Shown here piece by piece: positions 40,289 to 53,047 of a stretch of DNA of 64,000 nt. The DNA is from a virus (Duplodnaviria > Caudoviricetes), in the IMG/VR virus record IMGVR_UViG_3300021255_004000, positions 32,001 through 96,000 of that record, one strand, 5' to 3'. The notes below the pieces were generated by a model, which had not been told where the DNA came from, searched no databases, and saw only the letters and a program-made list of their open reading frames with translations. Position 1 is the stretch's first letter. Each line of letters starts with the position of its first letter. The position numbers and the translations under genes were made by a program.

Positions 40289-40327
40289 AATATAATTAGT
40301 CATACTAATCAATAATGGAGGACCAAA

Positions 40328-41160: not shown

Positions 41161-42549
41161 TTACTTTAACAGATTTTTAATGTTTGCAATCAGAATTGCC
41201 TTGTCAGTTTTTCCGTTGTTTACCTGATCTTTATGGGCAACTTCCAGAGCCTTGCGGAACTTTTCACTTGGCTTGAAACCTAAAGCAATCAGATCATCAC
41301 CAGTTACAATAGGTGCAGGAATTGGCTGACCAATTAAGCTTACAATTTTTGGAGAAGCCAGAGCTTCGTCTAAAGGCATTTCTTCATCGTCAGCAGCAGT
41401 TTTGATACAACCATCGCTGTCGCTTCTGCACAGCTCGCACAGTAAGTCGAAGTCAGGCAGATTCAGAATACTCATAATTGCAAACTTTTTATCCAGCAGG
41501 CCTAACTGATGCATCTTCATATGATTTGCAACTAAGCCTTCAACACGATGAGCTGTTGCACAATCTAATCTTAAGTCTCTCAGGAACTTGTAAGCAATAG
41601 GAGCACCAACTTCTGCGTGATCTTTAACTGCAGGGAAACCATTTTTGCTTAAGCCATTTTTGCGGCCTGAAGCAGGCTTTCCACAGTCGTGCAGAATTGC
41701 GCCCATTATGAAAACGAAACGGTCAATTTCATTTTCAATTTTAGGAGCACGAGCAACTGCAGCTTTTACAACCAGCATTGTGTGGTTGAAAACATTGCCT
41801 TCACTGTGCCATTTTGGGTTCTGCTCGCAAGTTTTCATATCTTCGAAAATCTCAGTTAAGTGAATTGCATCGAAGATTCCCATTCTTCTCATAATTTCAA
41901 AAACTTCCATTGTGAAGTCTTTACCGCCAAAAGTTTTGATTAACTCAGCACATTGTCTTTCAACAGAAACATCAGCAAAAACAACTTCAGGTGTTATTTT
42001 GTTGATGTGTGCCTCGATTGCAGCAACATCCTTTTCATTTGCCTTGAAGCCTTTTGAAGCAACAAAGCGAACATATCGGAAGATTCTTAAAGGATCTTCA
42101 GTGATGCGGTCAACTGCGTTTCCAACAAAACTTAATGTGTTTGATTTGATGTCAGCAATACCACAACCTGTTGGGTCGATAATGTTTCCATCTTTATCTT
42201 CGTACAAAGAGTTTACTGTAAAATCTCTGCGGAAAGCATCATCTTCAATTTTGTTTGAAAACTTGATTGTGGGATGGCGGCCTCTTGTCAGGTCAGAACG
42301 CCAAGTTGCAATTTCAACCTGTTCACCATTGATGATTGGCATTGCAACTCCGTACAAGTTTGCTTTTCTTGTTTCTGTAACACCAAAGATTTTGTTGATC
42401 TCATCAGGTGTTGCATTTGTTGAAATATCATAATCGTGAGGAGTTCTTCCAGTCAGTTCATCACGAACGCAACCGCCGACAAAGTAGGCCTTAAAACCAG
42501 CATTTTCAATAGGTGTAATAACTTTTTTGATAATTTCCTGCTTTGTCAA
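41161..42549 (-). CDS. cca: tRNA nucleotidyltransferase (CCA-adding, class II) with HD domain
   Basis: VGGCVRD, DYD, RRDFTVN, EDPLRIFR, H...HD; array tRNA genes lack an encoded CCA. Confidence 0.9.
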   Translation of the reverse strand: MTKQEIIKKVITPIENAGFKAYFVGGCVRDELTGRTPHDYDISTNATPDEINKIFGVTETRKANLYGVAMPIINGEQVEIATWRSDLTRGRHPTIKFSNKIEDDAFRRDFTVNSLYEDKDGNIIDPTGCGIADIKSNTLSFVGNAVDRITEDPLRIFRYVRFVASKGFKANEKDVAAIEAHINKITPEVVFADVSVERQCAELIKTFGGKDFTMEVFEIMRRMGIFDAIHLTEIFEDMKTCEQNPKWHSEGNVFNHTMLVVKAAVARAPKIENEIDRFVFIMGAILHDCGKPASGRKNGLSKNGFPAVKDHAEVGAPIAYKFLRDLRLDCATAHRVEGLVANHMKMHQLGLLDKKFAIMSILNLPDFDLLCELCRSDSDGCIKTAADDEEMPLDEALASPKIVSLIGQPIPAPIVTGDDLIALGFKPSEKFRKALEVAHKDQVNNGKTDKAILIANIKNLLK

Positions 42550-42571
42550 TTTGAACCTCCGTTACAAAAAT

Positions 42572-42600
42572 AATATAAAAGACTTGCACGGAAAGTTCAA
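42572..42600 (-). promoter_or_regulatory. Early-type promoter TTGAAC-N17-TATATT
   Basis: Conserved repeat upstream of cca. Confidence 0.75.
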
Positions 42601-43169
42601 ATATTATGCAAAAGTGGATGATTCTTTTTATAGTCGAACTTCAAGCCGTCCTTTACAATTTTGACGATTTCATCGTAGCCTTTTTCATTACCATCAACGA
42701 CAACAAATGGGATTTTATTGGATTCGAGAAACTTGGATGTTTTTCCATCTATCTCTTTAGCTTCGCCTTCAGTTTGATTTCTTCCGTTAGGATTATATGG
42801 CTTCACACGATTGATGACGAAGTTGAAGTTGAAACGATGATACTTTTCAAACTCTTCAAGAGATGCAGCTTTCAACATTGGCTGATCTTCTCTTGCGTAC
42901 AATGCACCAAGAGCAATAGGGCTATCAGTGATAATTACATCGACTTTGCCAAAGCAGCGGCTTATTTTGAAAGACTGCTTTCCTGTAATGTAAAATTGAT
43001 TTTTGAAAACTTCAGAGTTGTTTTCCCAAACTTTATCTTTTGCAAACTCAGAAACATATTCACAGTCAATACCTGCAAGTTTGAGTTTTGCAAAAACATA
43101 AGCGGCGCCTGTAGATTTTCCTGCGCCTGGGCCAGCGAAAAGATTTACAATAATTGTGTTTTTATCCAT
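42597..43169 (-). CDS. P-loop kinase (NadR/nucleoside-kinase-like)
   Basis: AGPGAGKST, EFAK, ITDSP. Confidence 0.75.
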   Translation of the reverse strand: MDKNTIIVNLFAGPGAGKSTGAAYVFAKLKLAGIDCEYVSEFAKDKVWENNSEVFKNQFYITGKQSFKISRCFGKVDVIITDSPIALGALYAREDQPMLKAASLEEFEKYHRFNFNFVINRVKPYNPNGRNQTEGEAKEIDGKTSKFLESNKIPFVVVDGNEKGYDEIVKIVKDGLKFDYKKNHPLLHNI

Positions 43170-43183
43170 AGTTGGATATTAAC

Positions 43184-43207
43184 AAAAAAGGTTGCTAAAA
43201 AGCAACC
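43184..43207 (-). terminator. Intrinsic terminator ending the tRNA array
   Basis: GGTTGCT-tttt-AGCAACC-TTTTTT on minus strand. Confidence 0.75.
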
Positions 43208-43212
43208 AATTA

Positions 43213-43295
43213 CGGAACCTGCGTGAGTCGAACACGCTCAACCCGAAGGTTGTACAGCTTAGCAGGCTGCTGCATTACCGTCCTGCCCAGATTCC
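43213..43295 (-). tRNA. tRNA-Ser(GCT)
   Basis: Cloverleaf, loop CTGCTAA, long variable arm. Confidence 0.9.
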
Positions 43296-43304
43296 AAAAT
43301 ACTT

Positions 43305-43379
43305 TGTGAGTGGCAGGAGTCGAACCCGCCTTCATCTGATCCGTAGTCAGAGGCACCAATTCCGATATACCACACTCAC
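43305..43379 (-). tRNA. tRNA-Arg(ACG)
   Basis: Loop CTACGGA. Confidence 0.9.
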
Positions 43380-43389
43380 ATAAAATATA

Positions 43390-43503
43390 GGCCTGTTGTA
43401 AATAGTGCAAGATTTTCAGTCTCGTGTGTCACCGTTTCACCTCATCAGGAAACCCTGATGGTGGGAGTCGAACCCACTTACGATAATAGGAACAACTTTT
43501 GCC
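43390..43503 (-). ncRNA. Y-like stem RNA copy 1 with circularly permuted tRNA-Phe(GAA)
   Basis: Order T-arm, acceptor hairpin, D-arm, anticodon arm inside the conserved stem. Confidence 0.8.
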
Positions 43504-43510
43504 TTATGAA

Positions 43511-43584
43511 AGCATCATATCGGATTCGAACCGACCCCTACTGCTTGGAGGGCAGTCGTGCTGAGCCGCTAACACTAATGATGC
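43511..43584 (-). tRNA. tRNA-Gly(TCC), C33
   Basis: Loop CCTCCAA; U73. Confidence 0.85.
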
Positions 43585-43597
43585 ATATTAAAGTTTT

Positions 43598-43671
43598 TGG
43601 GACCTCGAGGATTTGAACCCCGCACCCAGACATTATGAGTGTCGCGCTCTGACCCAATGAGCTAAGATCCC
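43598..43671 (-). tRNA. tRNA-CAT (probably Ile2, possibly Met)
   Basis: Loop CTCATAA; GGG acceptor. Confidence 0.8.
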
Positions 43672-43674
43672 ATA

Positions 43675-44050
43675 AAGATTACACAGTACTAAGAATCTGT
43701 ATCGAACGTCGTACTCGGCGGGATCCTTTTCACTGATGAAGTTGAGTGGCTACTGTGTATCACCATTGATATGACCTGCCGTGGGACACGGGCTTCATCA
43801 TCCTTTGAGCAGCAGTTTTGAGTGACGAGTTCAAAACTTTATTGCCTCTAAGTGCCGCAGGTTCTGTCAGTTGTTTGAGAAGGACAGCGTATGTTAGACG
43901 CTTCCTTAATTATTGTACACTTGGTACAACAATCTCTCGTGTTTCCCTTGTCTTTCAAATCAGGCGCAAGTAAGAAACAAAGCGTTATGGAACCACACAT
44001 AATTCACATCATTTGTTGAACTCATAACCCTAGAAATGCCAAAATCCCTA
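43675..44050 (-). ncRNA. Candidate large structured ncRNA (~370 nt)
   Basis: No credible ORF; many hairpins; TGTTAATATA motif just upstream. Confidence 0.45.
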
Positions 44051-44074
44051 TGTTTTTATATTAACATATTCAAG

Positions 44075-44147
44075 TCAGCCACCTGGGATTTGAACCCAGA
44101 ACCTAAGGATTAAGAGTCCCTCGCGCTAACCGTTGCGCCAGTGGCCG
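44075..44147 (-). tRNA. tRNA-Lys(CTT)
   Basis: Loop CTCTTAA. Confidence 0.9.
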
Positions 44148-44152
44148 ATAAG

Positions 44153-44223
44153 TGAGCGATACGGGAGTTGAACCCGTCTCAGCAGATTAAAAGTCTGCGG
44201 CAAAACCGATTTGCTAATCGCCC
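44153..44223 (-). tRNA. tRNA-Lys(TTT)
   Basis: Loop CTTTTAA. Confidence 0.85.
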
Positions 44224-44233
44224 GTAAATTGTT

Positions 44234-44306
44234 TGAGCTTGATGGGAATCGAACCCACGACCCACAGATTAAAAGTCTGTTGCTCTACCTATTGAGCTAC
44301 AAGCCC
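44234..44306 (-). tRNA. tRNA-Lys(TTT)
   Basis: Loop CTTTTAA. Confidence 0.95.
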
Positions 44307-44400
44307 ATAAGATACTCAAACAATTTAACAGGCTTTGTCTAAGGCAGCAATTACTGCTGCCACTTCCGCATTTCCTCTCATAATCATAATTTACTCCTTG

Positions 44401-44473
44401 AGATGAGGATGGGACTCGAACCCACCTGTAACAGTTTTGCAGACTGCTGCCTCACCAATTTGGCTACCTCATC
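44401..44473 (-). tRNA. tRNA-Cys(GCA)
   Basis: Loop CTGCAAA, U73. Confidence 0.9.
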
Positions 44474-44484
44474 ATAATTTTATT

Positions 44485-44556
44485 TACCGCGTGAAGGAGT
44501 TGAACCTTCCTAAGCCGTCTTGTAAGGGCGGTGCACAACCGATGTACCAACGCGGT
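44485..44556 (-). tRNA. tRNA-Val(TAC)
   Basis: Loop CTTACAA. Confidence 0.85.
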
Positions 44557-44566
44557 ATAAAGTTGA

Positions 44567-44649
44567 CGGAAGCGACAGGAATCGAACCTGCGACCTTTTT
44601 AGGGGAGACTGTTTTCAAGACAGTTTGATGCGCCAACCAACTCGCTTCC
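44567..44649 (-). tRNA. tRNA-Ser(TGA)
   Basis: Loop CTTGAAA, long variable arm, G73. Confidence 0.85.
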
Positions 44650-44657
44650 AAATGTAG

Positions 44658-44730
44658 GGTGCCCATCGGGATTCGAACCCGACCCTGAAGATCCACAATC
44701 TGCCGTGCTAACCGCTAACACTATGGGTAC
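44658..44730 (-). tRNA. tRNA-His(GTG)
   Basis: Loop TTGTGGA, C73; no encoded G-1. Confidence 0.85.
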
Positions 44731-44732
44731 AT

Positions 44733-44805
44733 TGCTGAAGGCAGGATTCGGACCTGCTACATCTGCCTTATGAGGGCAGCGTTCAACCGTATGAACTTCT
44801 TCAAC
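44733..44805 (-). tRNA. tRNA-Met(CAT)
   Basis: Loop CTCATAA; T-loop TCCGAAT. Confidence 0.8.
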
Positions 44806-44812
44806 ATAATAG

Positions 44813-44883
44813 CCCAAACTCAGGGATTTGAACCCCGGCTAGATGATCTTCAGTCACCTGTGCTACCGCTACACCAAGTTTGG
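44813..44883 (-). tRNA. tRNA-Phe(GAA)
   Basis: Loop CTGAAGA; atypical G37 and G73. Confidence 0.75.
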
Positions 44884-44888
44884 ATATC

Positions 44889-44962
44889 TGTGGCATCGGG
44901 GATTCGAACCCCGAAAATTTGCGTTCTTAGCGCAACAAGTATGCCAGTTCCATCAATGCCAC
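44889..44962 (-). tRNA. tRNA-Leu(AAG), short variable loop
   Basis: Loop CTAAGAA; Leu-type D arm, 5-nt variable region. Confidence 0.8.
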
Positions 44963-45570
44963 AAAAGTGTATTAGTTCGTTCATCGTATCTAATAAAGAT
45001 ACAATGAAGTCTACTTTTAATGTAGTCCTCTCTGGCTTTATCTTTCATCTTTCCTTTAACAGAATTGTGATAGCCTTTCTTTTCATCATATTCAAAAGCA
45101 ATGTTCAATTCTTTGTCATAGCCATCAAGGTGATATGGTCCAACACAAACTTCTCCGCCATTCATAGCGTGTTGTAAATGCCAACCATATTTTGCGTTCA
45201 GCTCATCAATGAACTTACAAGCATTTTCATTATAATTGCAATAGTTACCAAGATTGTGTCTTTTCCGCATCATCTCAGCAAGTTTTGCTCTTGTTTCAGG
45301 CGTATGAGTGTGGCCTTTCTTAATCTCACGATTAGGATTCAGTCCACAGTATCTCATATGTTGTGTTTTTGACTCCTTATTATTGAAGATTCTTCCGCAA
45401 AAGTCACAAAAACAAGTTTCTTTTCTATGAAGAGACCTTCCCAAGGAGTCAAGTCCTTGTTCTAATCTTTTTTCACAAGTTTTCTTATGTTCAAAATAGT
45501 TTCTTCTACCTTGAACAACACAACCACAATATTCACATTTCCAATTTTGAGCGTTTTTGTATGTTTTCAT
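44953..45570 (-). CDS. Homing-type endonuclease (Zn fingers, NUMOD3-like, Vsr/PD-(D/E)xK)
   Basis: CEYC, CDFC, HTPETRAKL, LDGYD...FEYDE; 3' end overlaps tRNA-Leu. Confidence 0.75.
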   Translation of the reverse strand: MKTYKNAQNWKCEYCGCVVQGRRNYFEHKKTCEKRLEQGLDSLGRSLHRKETCFCDFCGRIFNNKESKTQHMRYCGLNPNREIKKGHTHTPETRAKLAEMMRKRHNLGNYCNYNENACKFIDELNAKYGWHLQHAMNGGEVCVGPYHLDGYDKELNIAFEYDEKKGYHNSVKGKMKDKAREDYIKSRLHCIFIRYDERTNTLLWH

Positions 45571-45622
45571 ATCAATTAGTAAAGATTGGAAGACACACTT
45601 AACATCTCAAACCCATATTAAC

Positions 45623-45692
45623 AAAAAAGGCAACTCCTAAGAGCCGCCTTGAAAGATTTGTAAACTGTTTCTGCTTACAACTTCAAGGCTCT
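45623..45692 (-). promoter_or_regulatory. Attenuator 3: antiterminator/terminator
   Basis: Terminator AAGGCGGCTC-ttag-GAGTTGCCTT-TTTT; its 5' arm can instead pair with GCCTTGAAG spanning the leader stop. Confidence 0.8.
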
Positions 45693-45811
45693 AATACGAA
45701 ATGTTTTCCAAAGAGAGAACGAAGGACCATCTTCGAACACATACCGCATCCCAATACGAAACTAACAAATGAGGAATGTTTAACTATGTTCGACATCTTT
45801 GAAAAATTCAT
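45683..45811 (-). CDS. Leader peptide 3 (42 aa) MNFSKMSNIVKHSSFVSFVLGCGMCSKMVLRSLFGKHFVLEP
   Basis: AAGGA RBS; composition matches downstream tRNAs. Confidence 0.8.
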   Translation of the reverse strand: MNFSKMSNIVKHSSFVSFVLGCGMCSKMVLRSLFGKHFVLEP

Positions 45812-45893
45812 ATTCGTCAATCCTTAGCTATCAGGTTGCTACCCAAAATGTTTTTTCTTATTGAATAGTTAGTAAACAATTCAATAAAGTAAG

Positions 45894-45966
45894 TGGACCT
45901 ACCGAGCATCGAACTCGGACCTCAGGATTGCAGATCCCGTATGCCAGCCATTAACACCTTAAGCCC
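45894..45966 (-). tRNA. tRNA-Ala(TGC), C33
   Basis: Loop TCTGCAA; G3:U70. Confidence 0.85.
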
Positions 45967-45971
45967 ATAAA

Positions 45972-46092
45972 AATCTTCTGTTTATCCGCGAAGGTTGTTA
46001 CCAACTCTTCTTTCCTCTTGGAGGAACTGCTTTGTTTATTCTCCCGCTCCCGCATAACGCGTCGGTGTTGCGTTAGGAATTCACAGAAGATT
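45972..46092 (-). ncRNA. Candidate structured small RNA
   Basis: 10-bp closing stem AATCTTCTGT/ACAGAAGATT with internal hairpins. Confidence 0.45.
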
Positions 46093-46094
46093 AG

Positions 46095-46167
46095 TGGACC
46101 GTAGGGGAGTCGAACCCCTCTTTCCAGCGTGCAAAGCTGGAGTACTAAGCCGATATACGAACAGCCC
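46095..46167 (-). tRNA. tRNA-Ala(TGC)
   Basis: Loop TTTGCAC; G3:U70. Confidence 0.9.
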
Positions 46168-46174
46168 AAAATTA

Positions 46175-46260
46175 AAAGCGGGTTGTAAAAATTTCGCCGC
46201 AATGACGAAATATTGGAGTCGAACCAATAATTTCCGTTTAATAGGAACAACCTTTGCTTT
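46175..46260 (-). ncRNA. Y-like stem RNA copy 2 (T-arm plus acceptor-like hairpin)
   Basis: AGC-AAA-GGTTGT-TCCTA...ATTGG-TTCGACT-CCAAT...ACAACC-C-GCT. Confidence 0.75.
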
Positions 46261-46261
46261 A

Positions 46262-46333
46262 TTCCTCTGCTAGGATTCGAACCCAGAACAACTGATCCAG
46301 AGTCAGCAGTGTTACCAATTACACCACAGAGAA
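46262..46333 (-). tRNA. tRNA-Gln(CTG)
   Basis: Loop CTCTGGA. Confidence 0.9.
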
Positions 46334-46334
46334 G

Positions 46335-46406
46335 TCGGACGAGAAGGAGTTGAACCTTCGAAATCTCGGTCCCAGGCCGAGTGACATACCGCTTGCCGAC
46401 CGTCCG
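46335..46406 (-). tRNA. tRNA-Pro(TGG), C33
   Basis: Loop CCTGGGA; C1:G72, A73. Confidence 0.85.
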
Positions 46407-46414
46407 AAAATGAA

Positions 46415-46486
46415 AGCACCTGAAGGGAGTTGAACCCTCGCCTCAGCCTTGGCAAGGCCGCGTACTAGCCGTTATACTACAAGTAC
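46415..46486 (-). tRNA. tRNA-Gly(GCC)
   Basis: Loop TTGCCAA. Confidence 0.9.
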
Positions 46487-46495
46487 ATAAAATAT

Positions 46496-46570
46496 TGGGG
46501 TGGGTGGAATTGAACCACCGTGTAACCAACTAACCTTTCTGCGGTTTATCAGACCGAGGGTATACACCCC
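46496..46570 (-). tRNA. D-armless tRNA-Ile(GAT)-like RNA
   Basis: Acceptor GGGGTG/CACCCC, CGGT-CTGATAA-ACCG, long variable region, canonical T arm, no D stem. Confidence 0.6.
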
Positions 46571-46587
46571 ATTGTGTTTCAAGTTTT

Positions 46588-46660
46588 CAGGTGCGGAGAG
46601 ATTCGAACTCCCACCGACGGACTTGGAAACCGTAATGCTAAACCTTTACACCACGCACCT
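46588..46660 (-). tRNA. tRNA-Trp(CCA)
   Basis: Loop TTCCAAG; A1:U72, G73. Confidence 0.8.
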
Positions 46661-46668
46661 ATAAATCA

Positions 46669-46721
46669 TTAAAGGCTCAACTTTTAGTTGAGCCTGTAAA
46701 ATCCAAATTTTACTAGGCTCA
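46669..46721 (-). promoter_or_regulatory. Attenuator 2: antiterminator/terminator
   Basis: TGAGCCT-a-GTAAAAT-ttgg-ATTTTAC-AGGCTCA competes with AGGCTCAAC-taaaa-GTTGAGCCT. Confidence 0.8.
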
Positions 46722-46853
46722 CTTGATCTGCCACTGTCCTGAAATTGGGGCAATAGCTGCAACTGGTGCAAAGCCGGCGAAAGAAACTGGAAGACTAATG
46801 TGGCCGGCAAGTTTTACTGACTTAACTGATTTACAAACCATCATTGCTTTCAT
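46719..46853 (-). CDS. Leader peptide 2 (44 aa) MKAMMVCKSVKSVKLAGHISLPVSFAGFAPVAAIAPISGQWQIK
   Basis: AGGAG/AAGGA RBS, TGTTAATATA motif upstream; stop TGA begins the antiterminator arm. Confidence 0.8.
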   Translation of the reverse strand: MKAMMVCKSVKSVKLAGHISLPVSFAGFAPVAAIAPISGQWQIK

Positions 46854-46958
46854 ATTGTCCTTTCTCCTATAATTTTATATTAACAACTTTTCAGAAGTTT
46901 CTGAAAAATTATTTTCAATATTTAGTTAGTACAGTTGCAAAAACTGTAAGAGTTTTAA

Positions 46959-47040
46959 TCGGCCAGGAGAGACTCGAACTCTCAATCCACACGGCGTCCG
47001 ACCTTAATTCGGATGTGTATACCAATTCCACCACTGACCG
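46959..47040 (-). tRNA. tRNA-Leu(TAA)
   Basis: Loop ATTAAGG, long variable arm. Confidence 0.85.
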
Positions 47041-47047
47041 AACAAAA

Positions 47048-47230
47048 TTAACTATCCTTTAAGTATGCAACAGTTTTTCCATTTTCAAACATTTCTTGTT
47101 GAAGTTTGGAAATCTTGTTGTAAAGATCTTGGCAAATGCCTTTTGATCTTCCACTTAAATGGAAGCGTGCCATATGTCCTAGCACGAATGCAAGTTCTTG
47201 CAATCTCTCGTTATCGAGTTTGATTGTCAT
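47048..47230 (-). CDS. Small hypothetical protein
   Basis: AAGGAG RBS before MTIKLD. Confidence 0.55.
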   Translation of the reverse strand: MTIKLDNERLQELAFVLGHMARFHLSGRSKGICQDLYNKISKLQQEMFENGKTVAYLKDS

Positions 47231-47275
47231 ATAGACTCCTTGCACCACCAATTTTTTAATGAAATTGGAAACATT

Positions 47276-47342
47276 GGCGAGCTGTAGCAAATATACATTA
47301 ACAGTGTATTGCCTCATCGGCGTAATAGGAACAACTTATGCC
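47276..47342 (-). ncRNA. Y-like stem RNA copy 3 displaying an Asn(GTT) anticodon stem-loop
   Basis: GGC-ATA-AGTTGT-TCCTA...ATACA-CTGTTAA-TGTAT...ACAGCT-C-GCC. Confidence 0.75.
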
Positions 47343-47351
47343 TAACATGTG

Positions 47352-47433
47352 TGGCCGCAGGAAGTTTTGCCATCTCTTCGTCCCCCGACTTACAAGGTCG
47401 GTGCTCTTAGGGCAGTCTGAGCTACATTTGGCC
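47352..47433 (-). pseudogene. Aberrant tRNA-Thr(TGT)-like element
   Basis: D arm and CCGAC-CTTGTAA-GTCGG intact; T loop and acceptor non-canonical. Confidence 0.5.
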
Positions 47434-47434
47434 T

Positions 47435-47740
47435 TTGCTGCATCATAAAAAGACAACGCAGCGAAATCCGAAGTTTTTCTTTCAGTTGCCACAACCAAGT
47501 ATTTTTCAACCCACGTCTCATTAAGACAACCTACACTGGAGCTTTTGGTAAAACTTTCTACCCATATTCATCATACGGTAACCATTGTAAAGGCCTTTAT
47601 GCTTGTTCCGCCAGGCTCCCCGCTGACCAAGCTGATGTCTCGGTAATTTTTCATACCAGCCTCACCTTGGGCTCATACTTCCTTTCCCCAAGTACTCTTA
47701 GGTTTTCACGCGACCTAAACTATCCCACGAGTTTGAAAGA
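47435..47740 (-). ncRNA. Candidate large structured ncRNA (~300 nt)
   Basis: GC-richer than coding DNA, many hairpins, no credible ORF. Confidence 0.4.
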
Positions 47741-47751
47741 GTTTGCTTTCT

Positions 47752-48054
47752 CTAGTAATAACACCACCATTTGATACGACAAGTTTCACTGTCGAAGCAT
47801 TCAGTAAGAATGTTATCAATTTCCTCTTCCGTTGTATCAATATTAACAGATTTCAGTCTGCTTCTGATAAGTCCACGAGAATCTTTTTTCTTCTCGGAAC
47901 GGTCTCCTTTCATCGCACGGCGAGCGTAACGATCACAAGGATTTCCCCAACGGAACCAGAATCTTCGAGCTTCCTGTGTACCGCGTCTTGCGGTATATTC
48001 ACCGTAGCTGAAGTTTGCCTTATAAAAGGCGCTCTCGCAATAATCATTTAACAT
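47752..48054 (-). CDS. Small basic hypothetical protein
   Basis: AGGAG RBS; 100 aa. Confidence 0.6.
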   Translation of the reverse strand: MLNDYCESAFYKANFSYGEYTARRGTQEARRFWFRWGNPCDRYARRAMKGDRSEKKKDSRGLIRSRLKSVNIDTTEEEIDNILTECFDSETCRIKWWCYY

Positions 48055-48251
48055 CTAGTGTATCTCCTACACTATCCGTAAGTCATACGCGATCCTCCTA
48101 TTATAGCATCATCGTTCACAGGATCGAACTGCAACCGTACAGACCTTTAGAGCCTATCCGTTTTACCCCACACAGGGCGATGTTGCTTATGGTTGAACGA
48201 GATGGCAACAACATTACTTGTACACCAACGTCATCTGCTATAAAACTAAGA

Positions 48252-48333
48252 TGGGCCAAAGGAGAGTCGAACTCCTAATCCTTTCGGCGACTGCTTTTGA
48301 GGCAGTTGCGTATACCAGTTCCGCCATTAGCCC
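48252..48333 (-). tRNA. tRNA-Leu(CAA)
   Basis: Loop CTCAAAA, long variable arm. Confidence 0.9.
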
Positions 48334-48339
48334 AAATGA

Positions 48340-48412
48340 TTGCGGGAGGTGGACTCGAACCACCGACCTTCGGGTTATGGGCCCGATAAGCTGCCAACTG
48401 CTCTATCCCGCG
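48340..48412 (-). tRNA. tRNA-fMet(CAT), C33
   Basis: C1:A72 mismatch, GGG/CCC anticodon stem, loop CCCATAA. Confidence 0.9.
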
Positions 48413-48427
48413 ATGTAACATGTGTTT

Positions 48428-48503
48428 TGACGCTGACAGGACTCGAACCTGCGACACCGAGCTTAGAAGGCTCGTGTTCTTATTCCAGCTGAACTACAGC
48501 GCC
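48428..48503 (-). tRNA. tRNA-Arg(TCT)
   Basis: Loop CTTCTAA. Confidence 0.9.
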
Positions 48504-48685
48504 ATATTGAAAGTACTTTATACGTCGGACCAGTCCGTTCAGCTTTCGCCTAGGGAGTTTCGAGGCTCCCACCTACGCATATCAACTTTCTGTGTGCTTT
48601 TCGGGCTTCTTCTACTAAGCACTTAAACTTTCAGTTCTGCTAGAAACCAAAGTTCTTGACGTTCTCTCTAGCAATGAGAACCGTA

Positions 48686-48760
48686 TAGCTGTTGCAGGAG
48701 TCGAACCTGCTATCGTAAAGGATATGAGCCTCACATATTGAACCGTTCTACCCAACAGCG
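48686..48760 (-). tRNA. tRNA-Met(CAT)-like, initiator-like variant
   Basis: Loop CTCATAT; 1:72 mismatch; weak D stem. Confidence 0.65.
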
Positions 48761-48767
48761 ACGTACA

Positions 48768-48891
48768 AAAAGACGAGTTGTATTATTCGTGCTCTAACCG
48801 CTGAGCTATCCGCCCACGAACGAGCGGAGTTGGATTCGAACCAACGACCCCGTGCTTAAAAGGCAACAAATAGGAACAACTTATGTCTTTT
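48768..48891 (-). ncRNA. Y-like stem RNA copy 4 with circularly permuted tRNA-Lys(TTT)
   Basis: TGC-CTTTTAA-GCACG, T arm, acceptor hairpin, D arm, then CG, all inside the conserved stem. Confidence 0.85.
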
Positions 48892-48893
48892 AG

Positions 48894-48966
48894 CGGTGTA
48901 TGCGGGAATCGAACCCGCCATCTCCTGCGTGACAGGCAGGCGAAATAGCCGATATTCAAATACACC
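48894..48966 (-). tRNA. tRNA-Asp(GTC)
   Basis: Loop CTGTCAC, G73. Confidence 0.9.
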
Positions 48967-49175
48967 AAATAAACAAACCACCTTCCAAACGGAACGCCCG
49001 ATACTTGATCTTAATGTCCGCACTTATCCAAGAGTTTCATTTCGCGCGAGAAACTCTCGGGGGTTAGGGAGCTACAGGTGCCTAGGCTTACTACGATTAA
49101 GCCAACAAATGCGAGCTCGTCTCACAAAGGTTTGTACTTTTTGCCAACTTCTGTCTAGAATGAAGTTGAAAGTAG

Positions 49176-49263
49176 TGGGCCGAGAGGGAGTCGAACCCCC
49201 GATGTTTGCCGTAAAGGTGACGGATTTACAGTCCGCTGACTTCGCCACTGGTCACACCGACCC
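49176..49263 (-). tRNA. tRNA-Tyr(GTA)
   Basis: Loop CTGTAAA, long variable arm. Confidence 0.9.
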
Positions 49264-49329
49264 ATAAAATTGATGGCCGTGCTCATCACACATTTACAAC
49301 ATCGTTTCGAGCAATGTTACCATCAAGTA

Positions 49330-49402
49330 AGCTACTTGTAGGACTTGAACCCACAACATCCTGATTACAGGTCAGGCGCTCTACCATTGGAGCTAAAGTA
49401 GC
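49330..49402 (-). tRNA. tRNA-Thr(TGT), C33
   Basis: Loop CCTGTAA; G1:C72, C2:G71. Confidence 0.85.
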
Positions 49403-49558
49403 ACAATAAAAGATAAATTACATTTTTTCTTTCCATACATCTTTCATTCTAATTTGTCCGCGGTCACTGAACGAAGAAGATGGTTGTATTAGATGTTCTA
49501 TAACTTTTCGGGGCCTTAAGCCCGTATTGAGTGTTTCAACATCAGTCTCTTATCTTTA

Positions 49559-49631
49559 AGCCGCCTGAGGGATTTGAACCCACAACATCCGCATTACAGG
49601 TGCGGCGCTCTACCATTGGAGCTAAGGAGGC
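49559..49631 (-). tRNA. tRNA-Thr(TGT), C33
   Basis: Loop CCTGTAA; paralogue of 49330-49402. Confidence 0.85.
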
Positions 49632-49634
49632 ATA

Positions 49635-49706
49635 CAGTTCCGAAAGGAGTCGAACCTTCGTTCTCTGGATGAAAACCAGATGGCCTAGCCGTTAGCCGAC
49701 GGAACC
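49635..49706 (-). tRNA. tRNA-Glu(TTC)
   Basis: Loop TTTTCAT. Confidence 0.9.
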
Positions 49707-49787
49707 AAAAACTGTGAACTACTTCTAAGACTGGACGGAAGTATAGCAGCTCGTTCAAAAGATATATTGACTTTCAAACTTTTGTCT

Positions 49788-49872
49788 CGTATCAGGCAGG
49801 GCTCGAACCTGCGATGGGCTTTCGCTCGGCAGATTAACAGTCTGCTGTCTTCGACCACTCGACCACTGATAC
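49788..49872 (-). tRNA. tRNA-Asn(GTT) with long variable arm
   Basis: Loop CTGTTAA, G73, class-II-like body. Confidence 0.85.
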
Positions 49873-49879
49873 ATATTTA

Positions 49880-50431
49880 TTATGTTAAAAAGATTTTTAC
49901 TTCTTCTATAAAGATTTTAGGATTATTGAAAATATCTTTCCAAGATTTTCTCAATTCTTTCCATCCTTCTTCATTCAGAAGTTTATCTTTCTGAACATCT
50001 CTTTCTTTTTGCTCTTGAAATCTTTCGTGTTGTTCACCATCAATTTCAACGCAAAGTTTTTTGTCAGGCCAAGCAAAGTCCAAAGAAAACCTATGAAAAG
50101 GAACTTCTCTGTAATAATCTTTATCAATTTCTTGACCAAATTCATTTCTCATCATTGTAATAAACCACTCCTCAGGATATGAAGGTTTATTATTCCAACG
50201 ACAATCTCCAATGTTATGAGCTCGACCTTCAGCGTGAGCTTTTTTCATCGAAGCAGAAATCTTTTGTCTAACATCATCCGACATTGTATGTCCGCAATGA
50301 TCCTTCAACTTCTGTCTTGTTTCTTCTGACAAAACAGGTTTTTCTTTTCCAAGAGCTTTAGCCTTAGTATATTGATTTGTACCGTGGCCTTTTCTTGCGT
50401 GCATTGCATCGTACCATTTTTGACTTTTCAT
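49880..50431 (-). CDS. Homing-type endonuclease (NUMOD3-like plus Vsr/DUF559-like)
   Basis: SEETRQKL, SDDVRQKIS repeats; LDFAW...VEIDGEQH...D..L...GW. Confidence 0.8.
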   Translation of the reverse strand: MKSQKWYDAMHARKGHGTNQYTKAKALGKEKPVLSEETRQKLKDHCGHTMSDDVRQKISASMKKAHAEGRAHNIGDCRWNNKPSYPEEWFITMMRNEFGQEIDKDYYREVPFHRFSLDFAWPDKKLCVEIDGEQHERFQEQKERDVQKDKLLNEEGWKELRKSWKDIFNNPKIFIEEVKIFLT

Positions 50432-50519
50432 ATCAATTAGTACGGTCCTCCGCTCTACATGTGTCCCTATCGTCGGAACCTATTGTCAACATCTTATCGT
50501 CGGTCCCTATTGTCGGTAG

Positions 50520-50593
50520 CGGGATATGCGAGCATCGAACTCGCGACCTCTAGCGTGACAGGCTAGCGTGGTAGCCAACTCCACCAATACCCC
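50520..50593 (-). tRNA. tRNA-Asp(GTC)
   Basis: Loop CTGTCAC. Confidence 0.9.
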
Positions 50594-50807
50594 AAAATTG
50601 TAGGTATAAGAAACCTTTTGCAAGGAAAGGAATTACCCGTATGCCTTTTACCAGCCAACAACTTGTTCAGTAGTTCCATTTCTGTTATCTGACCAATAGT
50701 GTTTCTACTGGCTCTGACAAGTTATCAACCAAGGATTCGAACCTTCCACCGAACGATACCACGAGGTGGCAGCAACCAAGCTGTTATTTTATTCCGTTTA
50801 ACGTTCT

Positions 50808-50880
50808 TAGATCTTGCGGGGATCGAACCCACTCCTCCACCTTGAAAGGGTGGCGACTCAACCTTTTTGTCCTAAGATCC
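50808..50880 (-). tRNA. tRNA-Glu(TTC)
   Basis: Loop CTTTCAA. Confidence 0.85.
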
Positions 50881-50935
50881 ATATTTGAAGTTTCCTTCTT
50901 TTGTTGTAAACCTTTTGTATCGGTTTTACAGAAAT

Positions 50936-50964
50936 AATATAAAAGAAGTTTTTTCAAAGTTCAA
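50936..50964 (-). promoter_or_regulatory. Early-type promoter TTGAAC-N17-TATATT upstream of tRNA block 1
   Basis: Conserved repeat. Confidence 0.8.
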
Positions 50965-50999
50965 AAATTTTTATTTTTTTGCAATTTTTGTTATAAAAC

Positions 51000-51061
51000 A
51001 AAAAAGGCAAACCTTCATCGGTTTGCCTCAGGGAAACATTTCTCAGTTCTCTAAGGCAACC
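51000..51061 (-). promoter_or_regulatory. Attenuator 1: antiterminator/terminator
   Basis: Terminator AGGCAAACC-gatgaa-GGTTTGCCT followed by a T tract; GGTTGCCTTAG (leader end and stop) pairs with CTGAGGCAAACC. Confidence 0.8.
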
Positions 51062-51173
51062 TTGTATCTTCATTATAATCGTATTCATCTGTAGTGATAG
51101 CAGTTCTAACATCATTATTCAATAATGATCTTGTTGTGAGAACTTCTGCTGTCAATGAATACAATGAAGTCAT
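51051..51173 (-). CDS. Leader peptide 1 (40 aa) MTSLYSLTAEVLTTRSLLNNDVRTAITTDEYDYNEDTRLP
   Basis: AAGGAAGG RBS, ACTAAT motif upstream; composition matches downstream tRNAs. Confidence 0.8.
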   Translation of the reverse strand: MTSLYSLTAEVLTTRSLLNNDVRTAITTDEYDYNEDTRLP

Positions 51174-51267
51174 TTTTAATAGCCCTTCCTTAATATATTT
51201 CAATTAGTACAACCCTTAAAAATGTAAGAGTTGTAATTTGTTCCTCGTATATTTATATTAACAGATT

Positions 51268-51867
51268 TTAGTCTTCTGCTGTAGGAATTTCAATTCCAAA
51301 CAGTTTTGATAACTTATCTTTCCAATTAAGGAAATCATCGTTATGGCCGCCATCTGCATAATAAGTTACACCGTCATAAATCTTATCATAATTTGATAAG
51401 AAAGCTTTACAGAACTCTTCGTTCTCAGGATCGCCATCGCTGGCAGTATCATAAAGCTCGTCAATAAGTGTATCAAGCTTCTCAATGCAGTTTGCTGCTG
51501 CTTCATAGTTTGTCCAAACTCTTGAGAGAATTTGGAATAAACTTATCAACTTCATAAACTTATGCTTCAAAGCATCTGTTTTGATTACATCATACATATC
51601 AGAAAGTTCGCCGCCTACAATAACTGGGACGCCATTCAATCTTTCAAATGCGTGACATAATTCGTGTGCAACATATTTAGGCAAGTCCTCTTTGGAAACT
51701 TTTTTCCAAACAGAAATACTCTTTTCTGAAATGTTGTACTTTGCTTTCATTCCTGTGTAGTCAAAGTCGACAACATTTATAGAAACACTTGGACACGGAA
51801 TACCTGCATCCTCAAGCTTATCAAGCAAATTGTCTAAACACGCCTGTGCATCTTCTTGTTTAATCAT
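51268..51867 (-). CDS. Zincin-like (HExxH) protein
   Basis: VAHELCH; AGGAG RBS. Confidence 0.6.
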   Translation of the reverse strand: MIKQEDAQACLDNLLDKLEDAGIPCPSVSINVVDFDYTGMKAKYNISEKSISVWKKVSKEDLPKYVAHELCHAFERLNGVPVIVGGELSDMYDVIKTDALKHKFMKLISLFQILSRVWTNYEAAANCIEKLDTLIDELYDTASDGDPENEEFCKAFLSNYDKIYDGVTYYADGGHNDDFLNWKDKLSKLFGIEIPTAED

Positions 51868-52035
51868 AAACGGTACTCCTAATATTTAGTTATAGGAGAA
51901 AGAGTTCTCGCCGGTTTTAATTTCTCAAACTACAGCCCCGCTACCTGCATTCGATTTTTGCAAGCCATACGAGTAGCATCACTGCTGCGAGGTTGATGGG
52001 ACTTTCACCCATAGTGACGTTTAACGAACTCCTAA

Positions 52036-52124
52036 TTCGGAAGGCGGGATTCGAACCTGCACGACGCTGATATGCGTCACCAGAATCAAAGTCTGGGGAG
52101 ATACCAATTACTCTTTACTTCCGA
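52036..52124 (-). tRNA. tRNA-Gln(TTG) with long variable arm
   Basis: Loop CTTTGAT; GACGC-atatca-GCGTC extra arm. Confidence 0.7.
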
Positions 52125-52244
52125 GTAAAATAGTTTTCTCACTCTTGTTTGCAACGCGACGCAAGATTCCAATAGGTGGACATATCCGATATTCCTATTA
52201 TACGGAAGGCCCTTAAGCGCATCTACTGCCGCGAGAAAACTATA

Positions 52245-52576
52245 GGTGAACCAAGGACTTGAACCTTGCCGTTACTCCAGCCTTGCGAGCTTCACGGATC
52301 CAACAGTGTCCACCATCATTATAAGTGCAGTCGGGAATTGAACCCGCTCTCAGCTGGCGTGATCCGCGTGGGACGAAGCCGTGCCTTTTTCCTTCATCGC
52401 ACTTAACAAGCCTTACGGATTGCTCCTGCTTGTAATGGAGTCTTAGAGGTTTGACTGCCAACCTTTAGAACATAGAGGATTCGAACCTCAGTTTCTGAGC
52501 ATACTACACTCAGCGTTCTAGACCCTGCCCTACTTTGCTGTGCACTGCTTTTTCGAGCTTTCGAACTAATGTTCTC
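52245..52576 (-). ncRNA. Three tRNA-like RNAs with acceptor and T arm but non-canonical interior
   Basis: T arms CAAGG-TTCAAGT-CCTTG, CGGG-TTCAATT-CCCG, GAGG-TTCGAAT-CCTC, each with paired ends. Confidence 0.55.
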
Positions 52577-52706
52577 CTTTGACGGTATCAACTTCATCCT
52601 GCGTCGTCATATACAGGCCTTTACCATCCGGTGCTTCCAGCGGTTGAGTATAACTCCTCATATTTCCCGTTCTCTGTGTAGCCATCTACGTTGAAGTTGT
52701 CAAATA

Positions 52707-52779
52707 TAGTTCCTACGGGGCTTGAACCCATTTTTCGAGCTTGAGAGGCTCGCGAATTAGCCAGTTATTCGAAGGAACC
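52707..52779 (-). tRNA. tRNA-Glu(CTC)
   Basis: Loop CTCTCAA. Confidence 0.85.
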
Positions 52780-52784
52780 AAAAA

Positions 52785-53015: not shown

Positions 53016-53047
53016 ACTCGCCTCCTTGTTTGCGTTTTGACAATAAT

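What the first reader, a model, noticed from the sequence alone, without database searches (positions are those of the whole stretch)
43213..51210. Demand-sensing tRNA array: three leader-peptide attenuators whose codons match the tRNAs downstream
Seen: three short ORFs missing from the ORF track (51051-51173, 46719-46853, 45683-45811), each with an RBS. Each ends in a sequence that can pair with the 5' arm of an immediately following terminator hairpin, which is the trp/his attenuator geometry with the stop codon inside the antiterminator. Each leader's amino acids mirror the next tRNA block. Leader 1 has T/D/E/Y/N/R/L against tRNAs Glu, Asp, Asn, Thr, Tyr, Arg(TCT), Leu(CAA/TAA), Met. The distal half of leader 2 has A/G/P/I/Q/W against Trp, Ile, Gly, Pro, Gln, Ala. 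Leader 3 has F/S/K/M/V/H/C/G/L/R/I against Leu, Phe, Met, His, Ser, Val, Cys, Lys, Ile2, Gly, Arg, Ser. The match extends to synonymous codons (AGA with TCT, CGT with ACG, CAG with CTG, ATA with CAT). Established: ribosome stalling on leader codons favours antitermination, and host anticodon nucleases deplete tRNAs during infection. Inference: the phage senses which decoding capacity has failed and turns on the matching tRNA block. I know of no described phage tRNA array wired this way. Caveat: additional promoter motifs lie between terminators 1 and 3 and their blocks, so attenuation may boost rather than gate expression.
Basis: partly seen in the sequence, partly recalled or inferred. Interest (0 to 1): 0.96.

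Follow-up and report, generated by a model that had tools for sequence, protein, structure and literature searches.

The report
Leader-peptide attenuators inside a phage tRNA array
A large rumen phage splits its 35-gene tRNA array with three short translated ORFs, each ending inside a hairpin that competes with a transcription terminator and each using mainly the amino acids whose tRNA genes lie downstream, which looks like trp/his-type attenuation applied to tRNA genes, something I could not find described.

Summary
All three ORFs exist with SD sites. They are conserved in about 25 related metagenomic loci from three lineages, and every indel seen is in frame.

Structure: each stop codon lies in or next to the 5' strand of a hairpin that sequesters the 5' arm of the following terminator. 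Duplex strength gives p 0.0002-0.03 per module, and 18 of 19 other terminators in the window show nothing comparable. Divergent lineages keep the architecture with compensatory changes.

Composition:
- Leader 1 matches block 1 at 77% (p 6e-4).
- Leader 3 matches block 3 at 88% (p <7e-5).
- Leader 2 matches block 2 weakly (47%, p 0.03) but blocks 2+3 completely (p 3e-4).
- Shuffling tRNA order gives p 2e-4 to <5e-5, and the real leader positions maximise the codon match.

Block 2, and the distal block in relatives, have no recognisable promoter after the terminator, so read-through is needed.

Weak points: the synonymous-codon match is not significant. Blocks 1 and 3 also have promoter-like elements. 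Leaders did not change where relatives lost tRNAs. There are only 2-3 independent leader-block pairs and no expression data. The anticodon-nuclease link is speculation.

Verdict: probable ribosome-mediated attenuators giving feedback control of tRNA blocks (about 0.55). The earlier scan notes cover this same stretch, not other DNA.

The parts
51255..51263 (-). Promoter-like motif TGTTAATAT (extended -10 type) upstream of leader 1
   Evidence: The motif occurs 12 times in the window against 0.8 expected, always in gene orientation and usually 15-35 nt before an SD+ATG.
51051..51173 (-). Leader ORF 1 (40 codons; SD AAGGAAGGG at about 51191-51183)
   Evidence: Conserved in W-type relatives with in-frame indels only. 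Homologous to ORF A of the A- and B-type relatives through a shared EYDY-type C-terminal core. 77% of residues belong to the block-1 amino acids (p 6e-4).
51020..51061 (-). Antiterminator 1: the 5' strand (51061-51051, GGTTGCCT plus the stop TAG) pairs with the 3' strand (51031-51020), which covers the whole terminator 5' arm
   Evidence: 11 bp with one bulge. It is the MFE of the co-transcriptional intermediate at -17.3 kcal/mol. Duplex p = 0.002. The outer helix is kept in L001 and L005 with changed pairs.
50996..51029 (-). Intrinsic terminator 1 (10-bp stem plus U tract)
   Evidence: Conserved in all three lineages.
50936..50964 (-). Sigma-70-like promoter (TTGAAC-17-TATATT) between terminator 1 and tRNA-Glu. 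It would give block 1 a route independent of the attenuator.
   Evidence: The sequence is conserved in W-, A- and B-type relatives.
46958..50881 (-). tRNA block 1: Glu, Asp, Asn, Glu, Thr, Thr, Tyr, Asp, CAU, Arg(TCT), Met, Leu(CAA), Leu(TAA). It also holds inserted ORFs, including a DUF559/HNH-type endonuclease at 49880-50431.
46877..46885 (-). Promoter-like motif TGTTAATAT, 23 nt before the leader 2 start codon
   Evidence: Invariant in 10 relatives.
46719..46853 (-). Leader ORF 2 (44 codons; SD AGGAGAAAGGA). A paralogue of leader 3 and ORF C.
   Evidence: There are 24 protein clusters of 41-44 aa in public metagenomes, and all length differences are whole codons. It has no D, E, N, T or Y, so 100% of residues fall in the union of blocks 2 and 3 (p 3e-4). 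The distal 29 residues are 66% block-2 amino acids (p 0.005).
46662..46723 (-). Attenuator 2. The antiterminator 5' strand (46723-46715, containing the stop TGA) and an inner hairpin compete with the hairpin 46695-46673. A weak U tract follows, and tRNA-Trp begins at 46661.
   Evidence: Duplex p = 0.004. There is no room for a promoter before tRNA-Trp, so block 2 must be transcribed through this element.
45893..46661 (-). tRNA block 2: Trp, Ile(GAU, atypical), Gly(GCC), Pro, Gln(CTG), Ala, Ala
45683..45811 (-). Leader ORF 3 (42 codons; SD AAGGA)
   Evidence: Homologous to ORF C of A-type relatives. 88% of residues belong to block-3 amino acids. No 41-residue window of 48 phage proteins reaches that value, and no other six-frame small ORF does either.
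45646..45689 (-). Antiterminator 3: the outer helix 45689-45681 (includes the stop TGA) pairs with 45654-45646, enclosing an inner hairpin at 45680-45658
   Evidence: Duplex p = 0.03. ORF C keeps the same two-tier architecture with both helices changed in sequence.
45621..45650 (-). Intrinsic terminator 3 (10-bp stem, six U)
   Evidence: Invariant in 9 relatives.
45615..45623 (-). TGTTAATAT motif overlapping the terminator-3 U tract. In this window it precedes an inserted 205-aa ORF. In relatives it abuts the 5' end of tRNA-Leu(AAG).
43212..44963 (-). tRNA block 3: Leu(AAG), Phe, Met, His, Ser(TGA), Val, Cys, Lys x3, CAU, Gly(TCC), Arg(ACG), Ser(GCT). It has an internal TGTTAATAT at 44058-44066 and is closed by the terminator 43207-43190.

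Best explanation
The three ORFs are most likely leader peptides of ribosome-mediated transcription attenuators that give each tRNA block negative feedback from its own products.

Proposed mechanism:
1. RNA polymerase starting at the TGTTAATAT promoters (or arriving from the preceding block) transcribes a 40-46-codon leader.
2. The RNA around the leader's stop codon can pair with the 5' arm of the next terminator, forming an antiterminator.
3. A ribosome that translates the leader quickly reaches the stop codon and covers that strand. The terminator then forms and transcription stops before the tRNA genes.
4. If decoding of the leader is slow, the antiterminator strand stays free, the terminator arm is sequestered, and polymerase reads on into the tRNA block. 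Because the leader is built mainly from the amino acids served by the downstream tRNAs, slow decoding would reflect a shortage of those charged tRNAs.

Shown from sequence: the ORFs with SD sites, the terminators, the competing hairpins, their conservation and covariation, the composition match, and the promoter layout.

Inferred: translation of the leaders, ribosome-position control of folding, and any response to tRNA supply.
For: 1. ORFs with SD sites are conserved in about 25 loci from W-, A- and B-type lineages. Every indel observed is a whole number of codons.
2. With the RNA taken as far as the terminator loop, every module folds into a hairpin joining the stop-codon region to the terminator 5' arm. 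Blocking a ribosome footprint on the stop codon restores the terminator in every module. Antiterminator and terminator states differ by only 1-8 kcal/mol.
3. The complementarity is non-random in each of six modules (p 0.000-0.03) and absent from 18 of 19 control terminators.
4. Covariation: the outer helix reads GCCTTAG/CTGAGGC in the window, GCCTAGT/ACTAGGC in L001 and GCCTAGG/CTTAGGC in L005. Leader 3 and ORF C keep an outer plus inner helix with both sequences changed.
5. Composition against sliding windows of 48 phage proteins: L1 0.77 (p 6e-4), L3 0.88 (p <7e-5), ORF A 0.95 (p 1e-4), ORF C 0.87 (p <7e-5), L2 against blocks 2+3 1.00 (p 3e-4). None of 456 six-frame small ORFs does as well.
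6. Shuffling tRNA order gives p_codon 2e-4. Shuffling units gives p <5e-5. The real block boundaries give the maximum codon match of 406 placements. The real leader-to-block assignment is the best of 6, with 82 matches against 61 for the next best.
7. Differences between lineages go in the predicted direction. ORF A sits before a block that includes Pro, Gln, Trp and Ile and has 3 P, 3 Q, 1 W and 4 I. Leader 1, whose block lacks them, has 1, 0, 0 and 1, while leader 2 in front of those tRNAs has 3, 2, 1 and 4. ORF C has 3 Ala and its block has tRNA-Ala. Leader 3 has none and its block has none.
8. Layout: leader 2 has its own promoter motif, and tRNA-Trp starts 11 nt after the hairpin. In A-type phages, 12-14 tRNAs follow the ORF C terminator with no TGTTAATAT motif and no sigma-70-like site on that strand.
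Against: 1. No experimental or read-level evidence exists. The metatranscriptome data were assembled contigs only and gave no verdict.
2. The leaders are long and mixed, without the codon runs of classical leaders.
3. The synonymous-codon match is not significant (p 0.03, 0.20, 0.22). Pro codons in leader 2 variants do not follow the Pro anticodon.
4. Relatives that lost block tRNAs keep essentially unchanged leaders. L002 and L003 lack Pro, Tyr, one Thr, one Asp and Arg(TCT). L010 lacks Asp and Arg(TCT).
5. Amino-acid substitutions among natural variants are not biased towards in-set residues. My hand counts are about 5 of 16 for L1 and about 8 of 12 for L2.
6. Promoter-like elements follow terminators 1 and 3, so those attenuators can at most modulate expression.
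7. All loci descend from one ancestral array, so there are only two or three independent leader-block pairs. Grouping of tRNAs by codon type, together with polar versus hydrophobic peptides, could inflate the match.
8. In the window, terminators 1 and 2 are thermodynamically favoured over their antiterminators.
9. The host is unknown. The SD use and extended -10 promoters suggest Firmicutes. From my own knowledge, polymerase often outruns ribosomes in that group, which would weaken a coupled mechanism.
Confidence: 0.55

Rival explanations
1. The modules are translation-dependent terminators that report general translational capacity, such as ribosome availability or a global slowdown after infection, and not the supply of specific tRNAs. 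Under this reading the composition match is a by-product of peptide class and tRNA gene order.
For: The geometry evidence fits this reading equally well. There is no significant synonymous-codon specificity. Leaders are unchanged where block tRNAs were lost, and natural variants tolerate out-of-set residues.
Against: The amino-acid match is extreme under three nulls. The actual leader positions and assignment are the optimum among the alternatives tested. Differences between lineages go in the direction expected for block-specific leaders.
Confidence: 0.2
2. The ORFs are ordinary small phage genes (micro-proteins of two families), each with its own or a shared promoter and an ordinary, partly leaky terminator. 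The competing hairpins tune mRNA stability or terminator strength, and the composition match is coincidence.
For: Leader 1 has a promoter-ORF-terminator layout followed by another promoter. The peptide families share conserved motifs (EYDY; MNF.K...LF.KH) across lineages. Terminator-plus-TGTTAATAT cassettes also occur at ordinary genes, for example 43207-43176.
Against: This reading needs two independent coincidences: antiterminator complementarity at every module but at almost no control terminator, and a composition match with p around 1e-3 to 1e-5. Block 2 and the A-type distal block would then lie behind terminators with no promoter. There is no Pfam or PHROG match for any of the peptides.
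Confidence: 0.15
3. The elements are untranslated spacer RNAs, such as processing or stability hairpins or small RNAs released from the tRNA precursor, and the ORFs are fortuitous.
For: The regions are conserved at the nucleotide level as much as at the protein level. The first 17 codons of leader 2 are nearly invariant, even at synonymous sites.
Against: SD motifs sit at the proper spacing in all modules and lineages. Every length change seen preserves the frame, and the stop-codon position relative to the hairpin is kept. Synonymous changes are over-represented relative to neutral expectation in ORF A (about 5 synonymous to 5 non-synonymous).
Confidence: 0.05

Closest known systems
Ribosome-mediated transcription attenuation of amino-acid biosynthetic operons (trpL, hisL, pheL, thrL, leuL, ilvL of enterobacteria)
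   Same: A short SD-preceded leader ORF. An intrinsic terminator before the regulated genes. An antiterminator that shares the terminator's 5' arm. The stop codon placed so that a terminating ribosome masks the antiterminator. A leader enriched in codons tied to the regulated product. thrL and ilvL already sense more than one amino acid.
   Different: The regulated genes are tRNA genes, not enzymes. The element is in a phage. The leaders are 40-46 codons with 8-15 amino-acid types spread along them and no run of one codon. A clear 1:2 pause or anti-antiterminator hairpin is predicted only for some modules. Two of the three blocks also have their own promoter-like elements.
pheST attenuation by the pheM leader, and mgtL/mgtP-type leader ORFs that sense charged tRNA-Pro
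   Same: Leader translation speed reports the charged-tRNA level and sets read-through into genes of the translation apparatus or stress genes.
   Different: Those regulate a synthetase or transporters, with one sensed amino acid. Here the output is the tRNA itself, which would make a direct product feedback loop. This comparison rests on my own knowledge and was not tested here.
T-box riboswitches
   Same: The same functional logic: a shortage of charged tRNA leads to antitermination of genes that restore decoding capacity.
   Different: T-boxes bind uncharged tRNA directly and need no ORF. No T-box or other known leader family matched (Rfam).
Phage tRNA clusters (T4, T5, other large phages)
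   Same: A dense tRNA array with inserted small ORFs and homing-endonuclease-like genes, flanked by tRNA repair and maturation genes (Rnl1-type ligase, CCA-adding enzyme).
   Different: I found no described case where leader ORFs and attenuators partition such an array. Absence from that library is not proof of absence.

Membership tests
Leader-peptide (ribosome-mediated) transcription attenuator | Short ORF with a ribosome-binding site upstream of, and co-transcribed with, the regulated genes | tested here: met
   SD plus ATG for all three ORFs. Leader 2 lies between a promoter motif and tRNA-Trp with no intervening promoter. ORF C lies between tRNA-Ala and 12-14 tRNAs.
Leader-peptide (ribosome-mediated) transcription attenuator | Intrinsic terminator between the leader and the regulated genes | tested here: met
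   Strong terminators follow L1 and L3. L2 has a 10-bp hairpin with a weak U tract, so this feature is only partly met for L2.
Leader-peptide (ribosome-mediated) transcription attenuator | A mutually exclusive antiterminator that uses the terminator's 5' arm | tested here: met
   Significance, control terminators, covariation.
Leader-peptide (ribosome-mediated) transcription attenuator | Stop codon positioned so that a terminating ribosome masks the antiterminator while an upstream stall leaves it free | tested here: met
   The stop codon lies inside the 5' strand (L1, L2, L3) or within 12-18 nt of it (ORF A, ORF C). Footprint-constrained folds switch to the terminator. This is a geometric test only.
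Leader-peptide (ribosome-mediated) transcription attenuator | Leader enriched in codons cognate to the regulated product | tested here: met
   Significant at the amino-acid level. Not significant at the synonymous-codon level. There are no codon runs.
Leader-peptide (ribosome-mediated) transcription attenuator | Read-through responds to translation of the leader and to charged-tRNA supply | not testable with these tools
   Only assembled RNA contigs were available.
T-box riboswitch | Conserved T-box fold with specifier loop and T-box sequence | tested here: not met
   No T-box or other cis-regulatory leader family was found at E <= 0.1 over 42500-53500.

The most novel reading that the evidence does not exclude
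Each leader is a block-specific demand sensor. When the tRNAs of one block become limiting, for instance through cleavage by host anticodon nucleases or through the phage's own codon demand, ribosomes slow only on the matching leader and only that block is induced. The array would then be a self-balancing tRNA supply. The flanking Rnl1-type ligase, CCA-adding enzyme and kinase-like protein would belong to the same response to tRNA damage.
Probability: 0.25. Interest if true: 0.95.

Novelty: new variant of a known kind. Interest (0 to 1): 0.8.

Why it matters
How phage tRNA genes are regulated is essentially unknown, and why large phages carry near-complete tRNA sets is still debated. Candidate reasons include codon usage, host tRNA degradation and anticodon-nuclease defence.

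A leader-peptide attenuator whose output is the tRNA itself would be a direct product-feedback loop on decoding capacity. It would extend a textbook mechanism to a new class of regulated genes and to viruses. It would also give a compact, testable reporter (leader, attenuator, reporter gene) for which tRNAs become limiting during infection.

The design uses a mixed-codon leader that integrates many tRNAs through translation speed. That differs from the codon-run design of classical leaders and could be useful for synthetic sensors.

Tried and rejected
- Megablast of the region against 50,697 phage records gave no match. Distant blastn hit only tRNA-Glu.
- No whole genome is held for the window.
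- A viral-contig scan with the CCA-adding enzyme found no relative. A pattern scan for the EYDY-terminator signature found only contigs already in hand.
- Pfam and PHROGs gave no family for any of the five small peptides.
- Rfam gave no known leader or attenuator family.
- The 52-aa 'extended' leader 1 proteins in public databases looked as if the stop codon was not conserved. They are gene calls made with TAG=Q, and the DNA keeps TAG.
- RNA evidence: four metatranscriptome runs from four studies hold the array, and their contigs bridge the leader 2 hairpin. These are assembled contigs and may include DNA, so there is no verdict on 3' ends or read-through.
- Leader against the upstream block, as an alternative pairing, gave no match (0.09-0.27).
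- Tracking of leader composition with tRNA gain or loss among close relatives was not seen. Between the two deep lineages the direction is as predicted, but the counts are too small for significance.
- Literature searches for leader-peptide control of tRNA genes or phage tRNA arrays found nothing relevant. My recollection of a possible precedent at E. coli tRNA-Phe genes could not be confirmed, so I do not claim it.

Full report
**What is there**

The window belongs to an uncultured large phage from ruminant gut metagenomes. It has no close relative among 50,697 deposited phage genomes. Related contigs reach about 160-300 kb, and public runs that hold the stretch are bovine and sheep gut samples.

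On the minus strand, between 52780 and 43212, lie 35 ARAGORN tRNA genes. Rfam adds two more, at 46495-46571 (anticodon arm GAU, atypical D region) and 48686-48760 (CAU). It gives no support to ARAGORN's Arg(CCT), which overlaps tRNA-Gln.

Strong intrinsic terminators follow L1 and L3. L2 is followed by a 10-bp GC-rich hairpin with a weak U tract that ends 11 nt before tRNA-Trp.

**Relatives**

I collected about 25 related loci, using three routes:
- the 199-aa gene upstream of L1 as an anchor;
- protein-database hits to the small ORFs themselves;
- the contigs that encode those hits.

W-type loci all show L1, block 1, L2, block 2, L3, block 3 in that order. A-type loci have a homologue of L1 (ORF A, 39 aa) and a homologue of L3 (ORF C, 46 aa) but no L2. 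A third lineage (L025, whose anchor protein is 38% identical) has a 36-aa ORF A homologue. L2, L3 and ORF C are homologous to one another, and L1 and ORF A share a C-terminal EYDY core.

Every length difference seen is a whole number of codons. L1 shows -3, +3 and +6 nt, and L2 variants are 41, 42 or 44 aa. Database proteins that seemed to read through the L1 stop codon are gene calls made with TAG=Q, and the DNA keeps TAG. None of the peptides matches Pfam or PHROGs.

**Structure**

I folded each module up to the terminator loop, that is, before the 3' arm has been transcribed. In every case the result is a two-tier hairpin whose outer helix joins the stop-codon region to the foot and 5' arm of the terminator. 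With the full sequence, the terminator state and the antiterminator state lie within 1-8 kcal/mol of each other, and in the A-type modules the antiterminator is the MFE. Blocking a ribosome-sized footprint on the stop codon gives the terminator in every module.

The complementarity between the 40 nt around the stop codon and the terminator 5' arm was compared with random 40-mers of the same genome:

| Module | p |
|---|---|
| L1 | 0.002 |
| L2 | 0.004 |
| L3 | 0.03 |
| ORF A (L001) | 0.004 |
| ORF A (L005) | 0.000 |
| ORF C | 0.007 |

Nineteen other terminators in the window, tested the same way, give p 0.10-0.99 with one at 0.017.

The helix is kept through sequence change. It reads GCCTTAG/CTGAGGC in the window, GCCTAGT/ACTAGGC in L001 and GCCTAGG/CTTAGGC in L005 and L025. 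L3 and ORF C keep the outer helix, a 3-nt bulge and the inner helix, although both helices differ in sequence and the stop codon has moved by four codons. With only three to five distinct sequences per family, the formal covariation statistics are modest.

**Composition**

I used 48 long ORFs of the window as the proteome. Sliding windows of the same length rarely or never match a block's amino-acid set as well as the leader in front of it:

| Leader vs block | Observed | Null mean | p |
|---|---|---|---|
| L1 vs block 1 | 0.77 | 0.44 | 6e-4 |
| L3 vs block 3 | 0.88 | null maximum 0.78 | <7e-5 |
| ORF A vs its block | 0.95 | 0.72 | 1e-4 |
| ORF C vs its block | 0.87 | 0.54 | <7e-5 |
| L2 vs block 2 | 0.47 | 0.29 | 0.03 |
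| L2 vs blocks 2+3 | 1.00 | 0.68 | 3e-4 |

L2 contains no D, E, N, T or Y. Its distal 29 residues match block 2 (0.66, p 0.005) and its first 14 match block 3 (0.93, p 7e-4). Splitting L2 in this way was chosen after seeing the data.

Further controls:
- Among 456 six-frame small ORFs, none other than the leaders themselves reaches these values.
- Conditioning on the peptides and shuffling the tRNA order gives p_aa 0.005 and p_codon 2e-4 for the window, and p_aa 0.004 and p_codon <5e-5 for L001.
- Shuffling runs of same-amino-acid tRNAs as units gives p <5e-5 for the window.
- The real positions of the leaders give the highest codon match of 406 possible boundary placements.
- The real leader-to-block assignment is the best of six, with 82 matches against 61 for the next best.
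- Pairing each leader with the upstream block gives no match.
- The synonymous-codon claim is weak. Given the amino acids, codon choice fits the block anticodons with p 0.03, 0.20 and 0.22.

**Transcription layout**

TGTTAATAT occurs 12 times against 0.8 expected, always in gene orientation and typically 15-35 nt before an SD. It looks like an extended -10 promoter. It precedes L1 and L2. It overlaps the U tract of terminator 3, occurs once inside block 3, and follows the final terminator.

Block 1 also has a conserved TTGAAC-17-TATATT element after terminator 1.

Three observations point the other way:
- tRNA-Trp starts 11 nt after the L2 hairpin.
- In relatives without the inserted 205-aa ORF, tRNA-Leu(AAG) starts directly after the TGTTAATAT motif, so a start from that element would fall inside the tRNA.
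- In A-type phages, 12-14 tRNAs follow the ORF C terminator with neither the motif nor a sigma-70-like site on that strand.

Those tRNAs can apparently be made only by reading through a leader-associated terminator.

**Evidence that cuts the other way**

- Relatives that lost block tRNAs keep their leaders. L002 and L003 lack Pro, Tyr, one Thr, one Asp and Arg(TCT). L010 lacks Asp and Arg(TCT).
- Substitutions among natural variants are not biased towards in-set residues (counted by hand).
- Pro codons in L2 variants do not follow the Pro anticodon.
- All loci share one ancestral array, so there are only two or three independent leader-block pairs. The blocks are partly grouped by codon type (NAN codons in block 1, GC-rich codons in block 2). 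Together with one polar and one hydrophobic or basic peptide family, this could inflate the association.
- The array module is far more conserved than the flanking protein gene (about 90% nt against 41% aa). Conservation of the leaders therefore partly reflects recent exchange of the module and not constraint alone.
- The RNA data available were assembled contigs and allow no statement on 3' ends.

**Interpretation**

By the criteria normally used to predict attenuators from sequence, these qualify. Those criteria are a leader ORF, alternative hairpins, conservation, and regulatory codons related to the product. The most economical reading is feedback control: fast translation of a leader built from the block's amino acids lets the terminator form, and slow translation lets polymerase through.

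I put this at about 0.55. A codon-unspecific translation sensor gets 0.2, ordinary small genes 0.15 and untranslated spacers 0.05.

The link to anticodon nucleases is suggested only by context. A T4 Rnl1-family ligase (58277-59512), a CCA-adding enzyme (41161-42549) and an AAA_28 kinase-like protein (42597-43169) flank the array.

I found no description of leader-peptide control of tRNA genes or of phage tRNA arrays in the searchable literature. The mechanism type is classical, while the regulated genes, the viral setting and the mixed-codon leader design would be new.

The earlier scan notes on this region cover this same stretch, most of them read from an overlapping window. They are not independent support.

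Noticed in passing
window 1105, 2048, 27063, 29969, 43184, 44066, 45623, 46885, 47848, 51263, 53139, 59540: TGTTAATAT occurs 12 times (0.8 expected), always in gene orientation. It is probably the phage's extended -10 promoter. At 43184 it lies 6 nt before the ATG of the 190-aa AAA_28 gene, which has no SD, suggesting a leaderless mRNA. Several copies sit directly on a terminator U tract, forming a terminator-promoter cassette.
   Followed up: partly
window 44953-45570 (-) and 49880-50431 (-): Two endonuclease-like ORFs are inserted in the array and absent at these positions in relatives such as L010, L017 and L009. One is a 205-aa zinc-finger-like ORF that overlaps tRNA-Leu(AAG) by 11 nt. The other is a 183-aa DUF559/HNH-type ORF. 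Relatives carry different insertions at other sites in the array, which looks like mobile homing-endonuclease genes.
   Followed up: partly
window 46495-46571 (-), 48686-48760 (-), 48788-48852 (-), 46204-46280 (-): Atypical tRNA-like elements. An Ile(GAU) anticodon arm sits in a molecule with an aberrant D region (Rfam 32.9 bits, missed by ARAGORN). ARAGORN also missed a CAU tRNA. There is a weak YrlA (Y RNA-like) match of 32 bits, below the gathering score. ARAGORN's Arg(CCT) overlaps tRNA-Gln and is probably false.
   Followed up: partly
L005 16951-17034; L014 10238-10321; L016 18404-18487 and 20281-20378: ARAGORN reports tRNA-like genes with four-base anticodons (tttc, atga) inside the arrays of A-type relatives. 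They could be frameshift-suppressor-like tRNAs or degenerate copies.
   Followed up: no
window 58277-59512 (-), 41161-42549 (-), 42597-43169 (-), 39794-40312 (-): A tRNA repair and maturation gene set brackets the array: a T4 Rnl1-family RNA ligase, a CCA-adding enzyme with an HD domain, an AAA_28 kinase-like protein and a NUDIX hydrolase. A Cpn60-type chaperonin (34853-36562) and a ThiC-family radical SAM protein (56890-57918) are also nearby.
   Followed up: partly
L001 versus L005/L014/L016; L025: The array module, including ORF A and its attenuator, is about 90% identical in nucleotides between phages whose adjacent 199-aa protein is only 38-41% identical. The tRNA array therefore appears to be exchanged between lineages as a cassette, with a recombination boundary just upstream of the first leader.
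   Followed up: no
window 46587-46661 versus L017-L023: The tRNA-Trp gene directly after leader 2 differs strongly between the window's group and other W-type relatives, while the leader and hairpin in front of it are nearly invariant.
   Followed up: no
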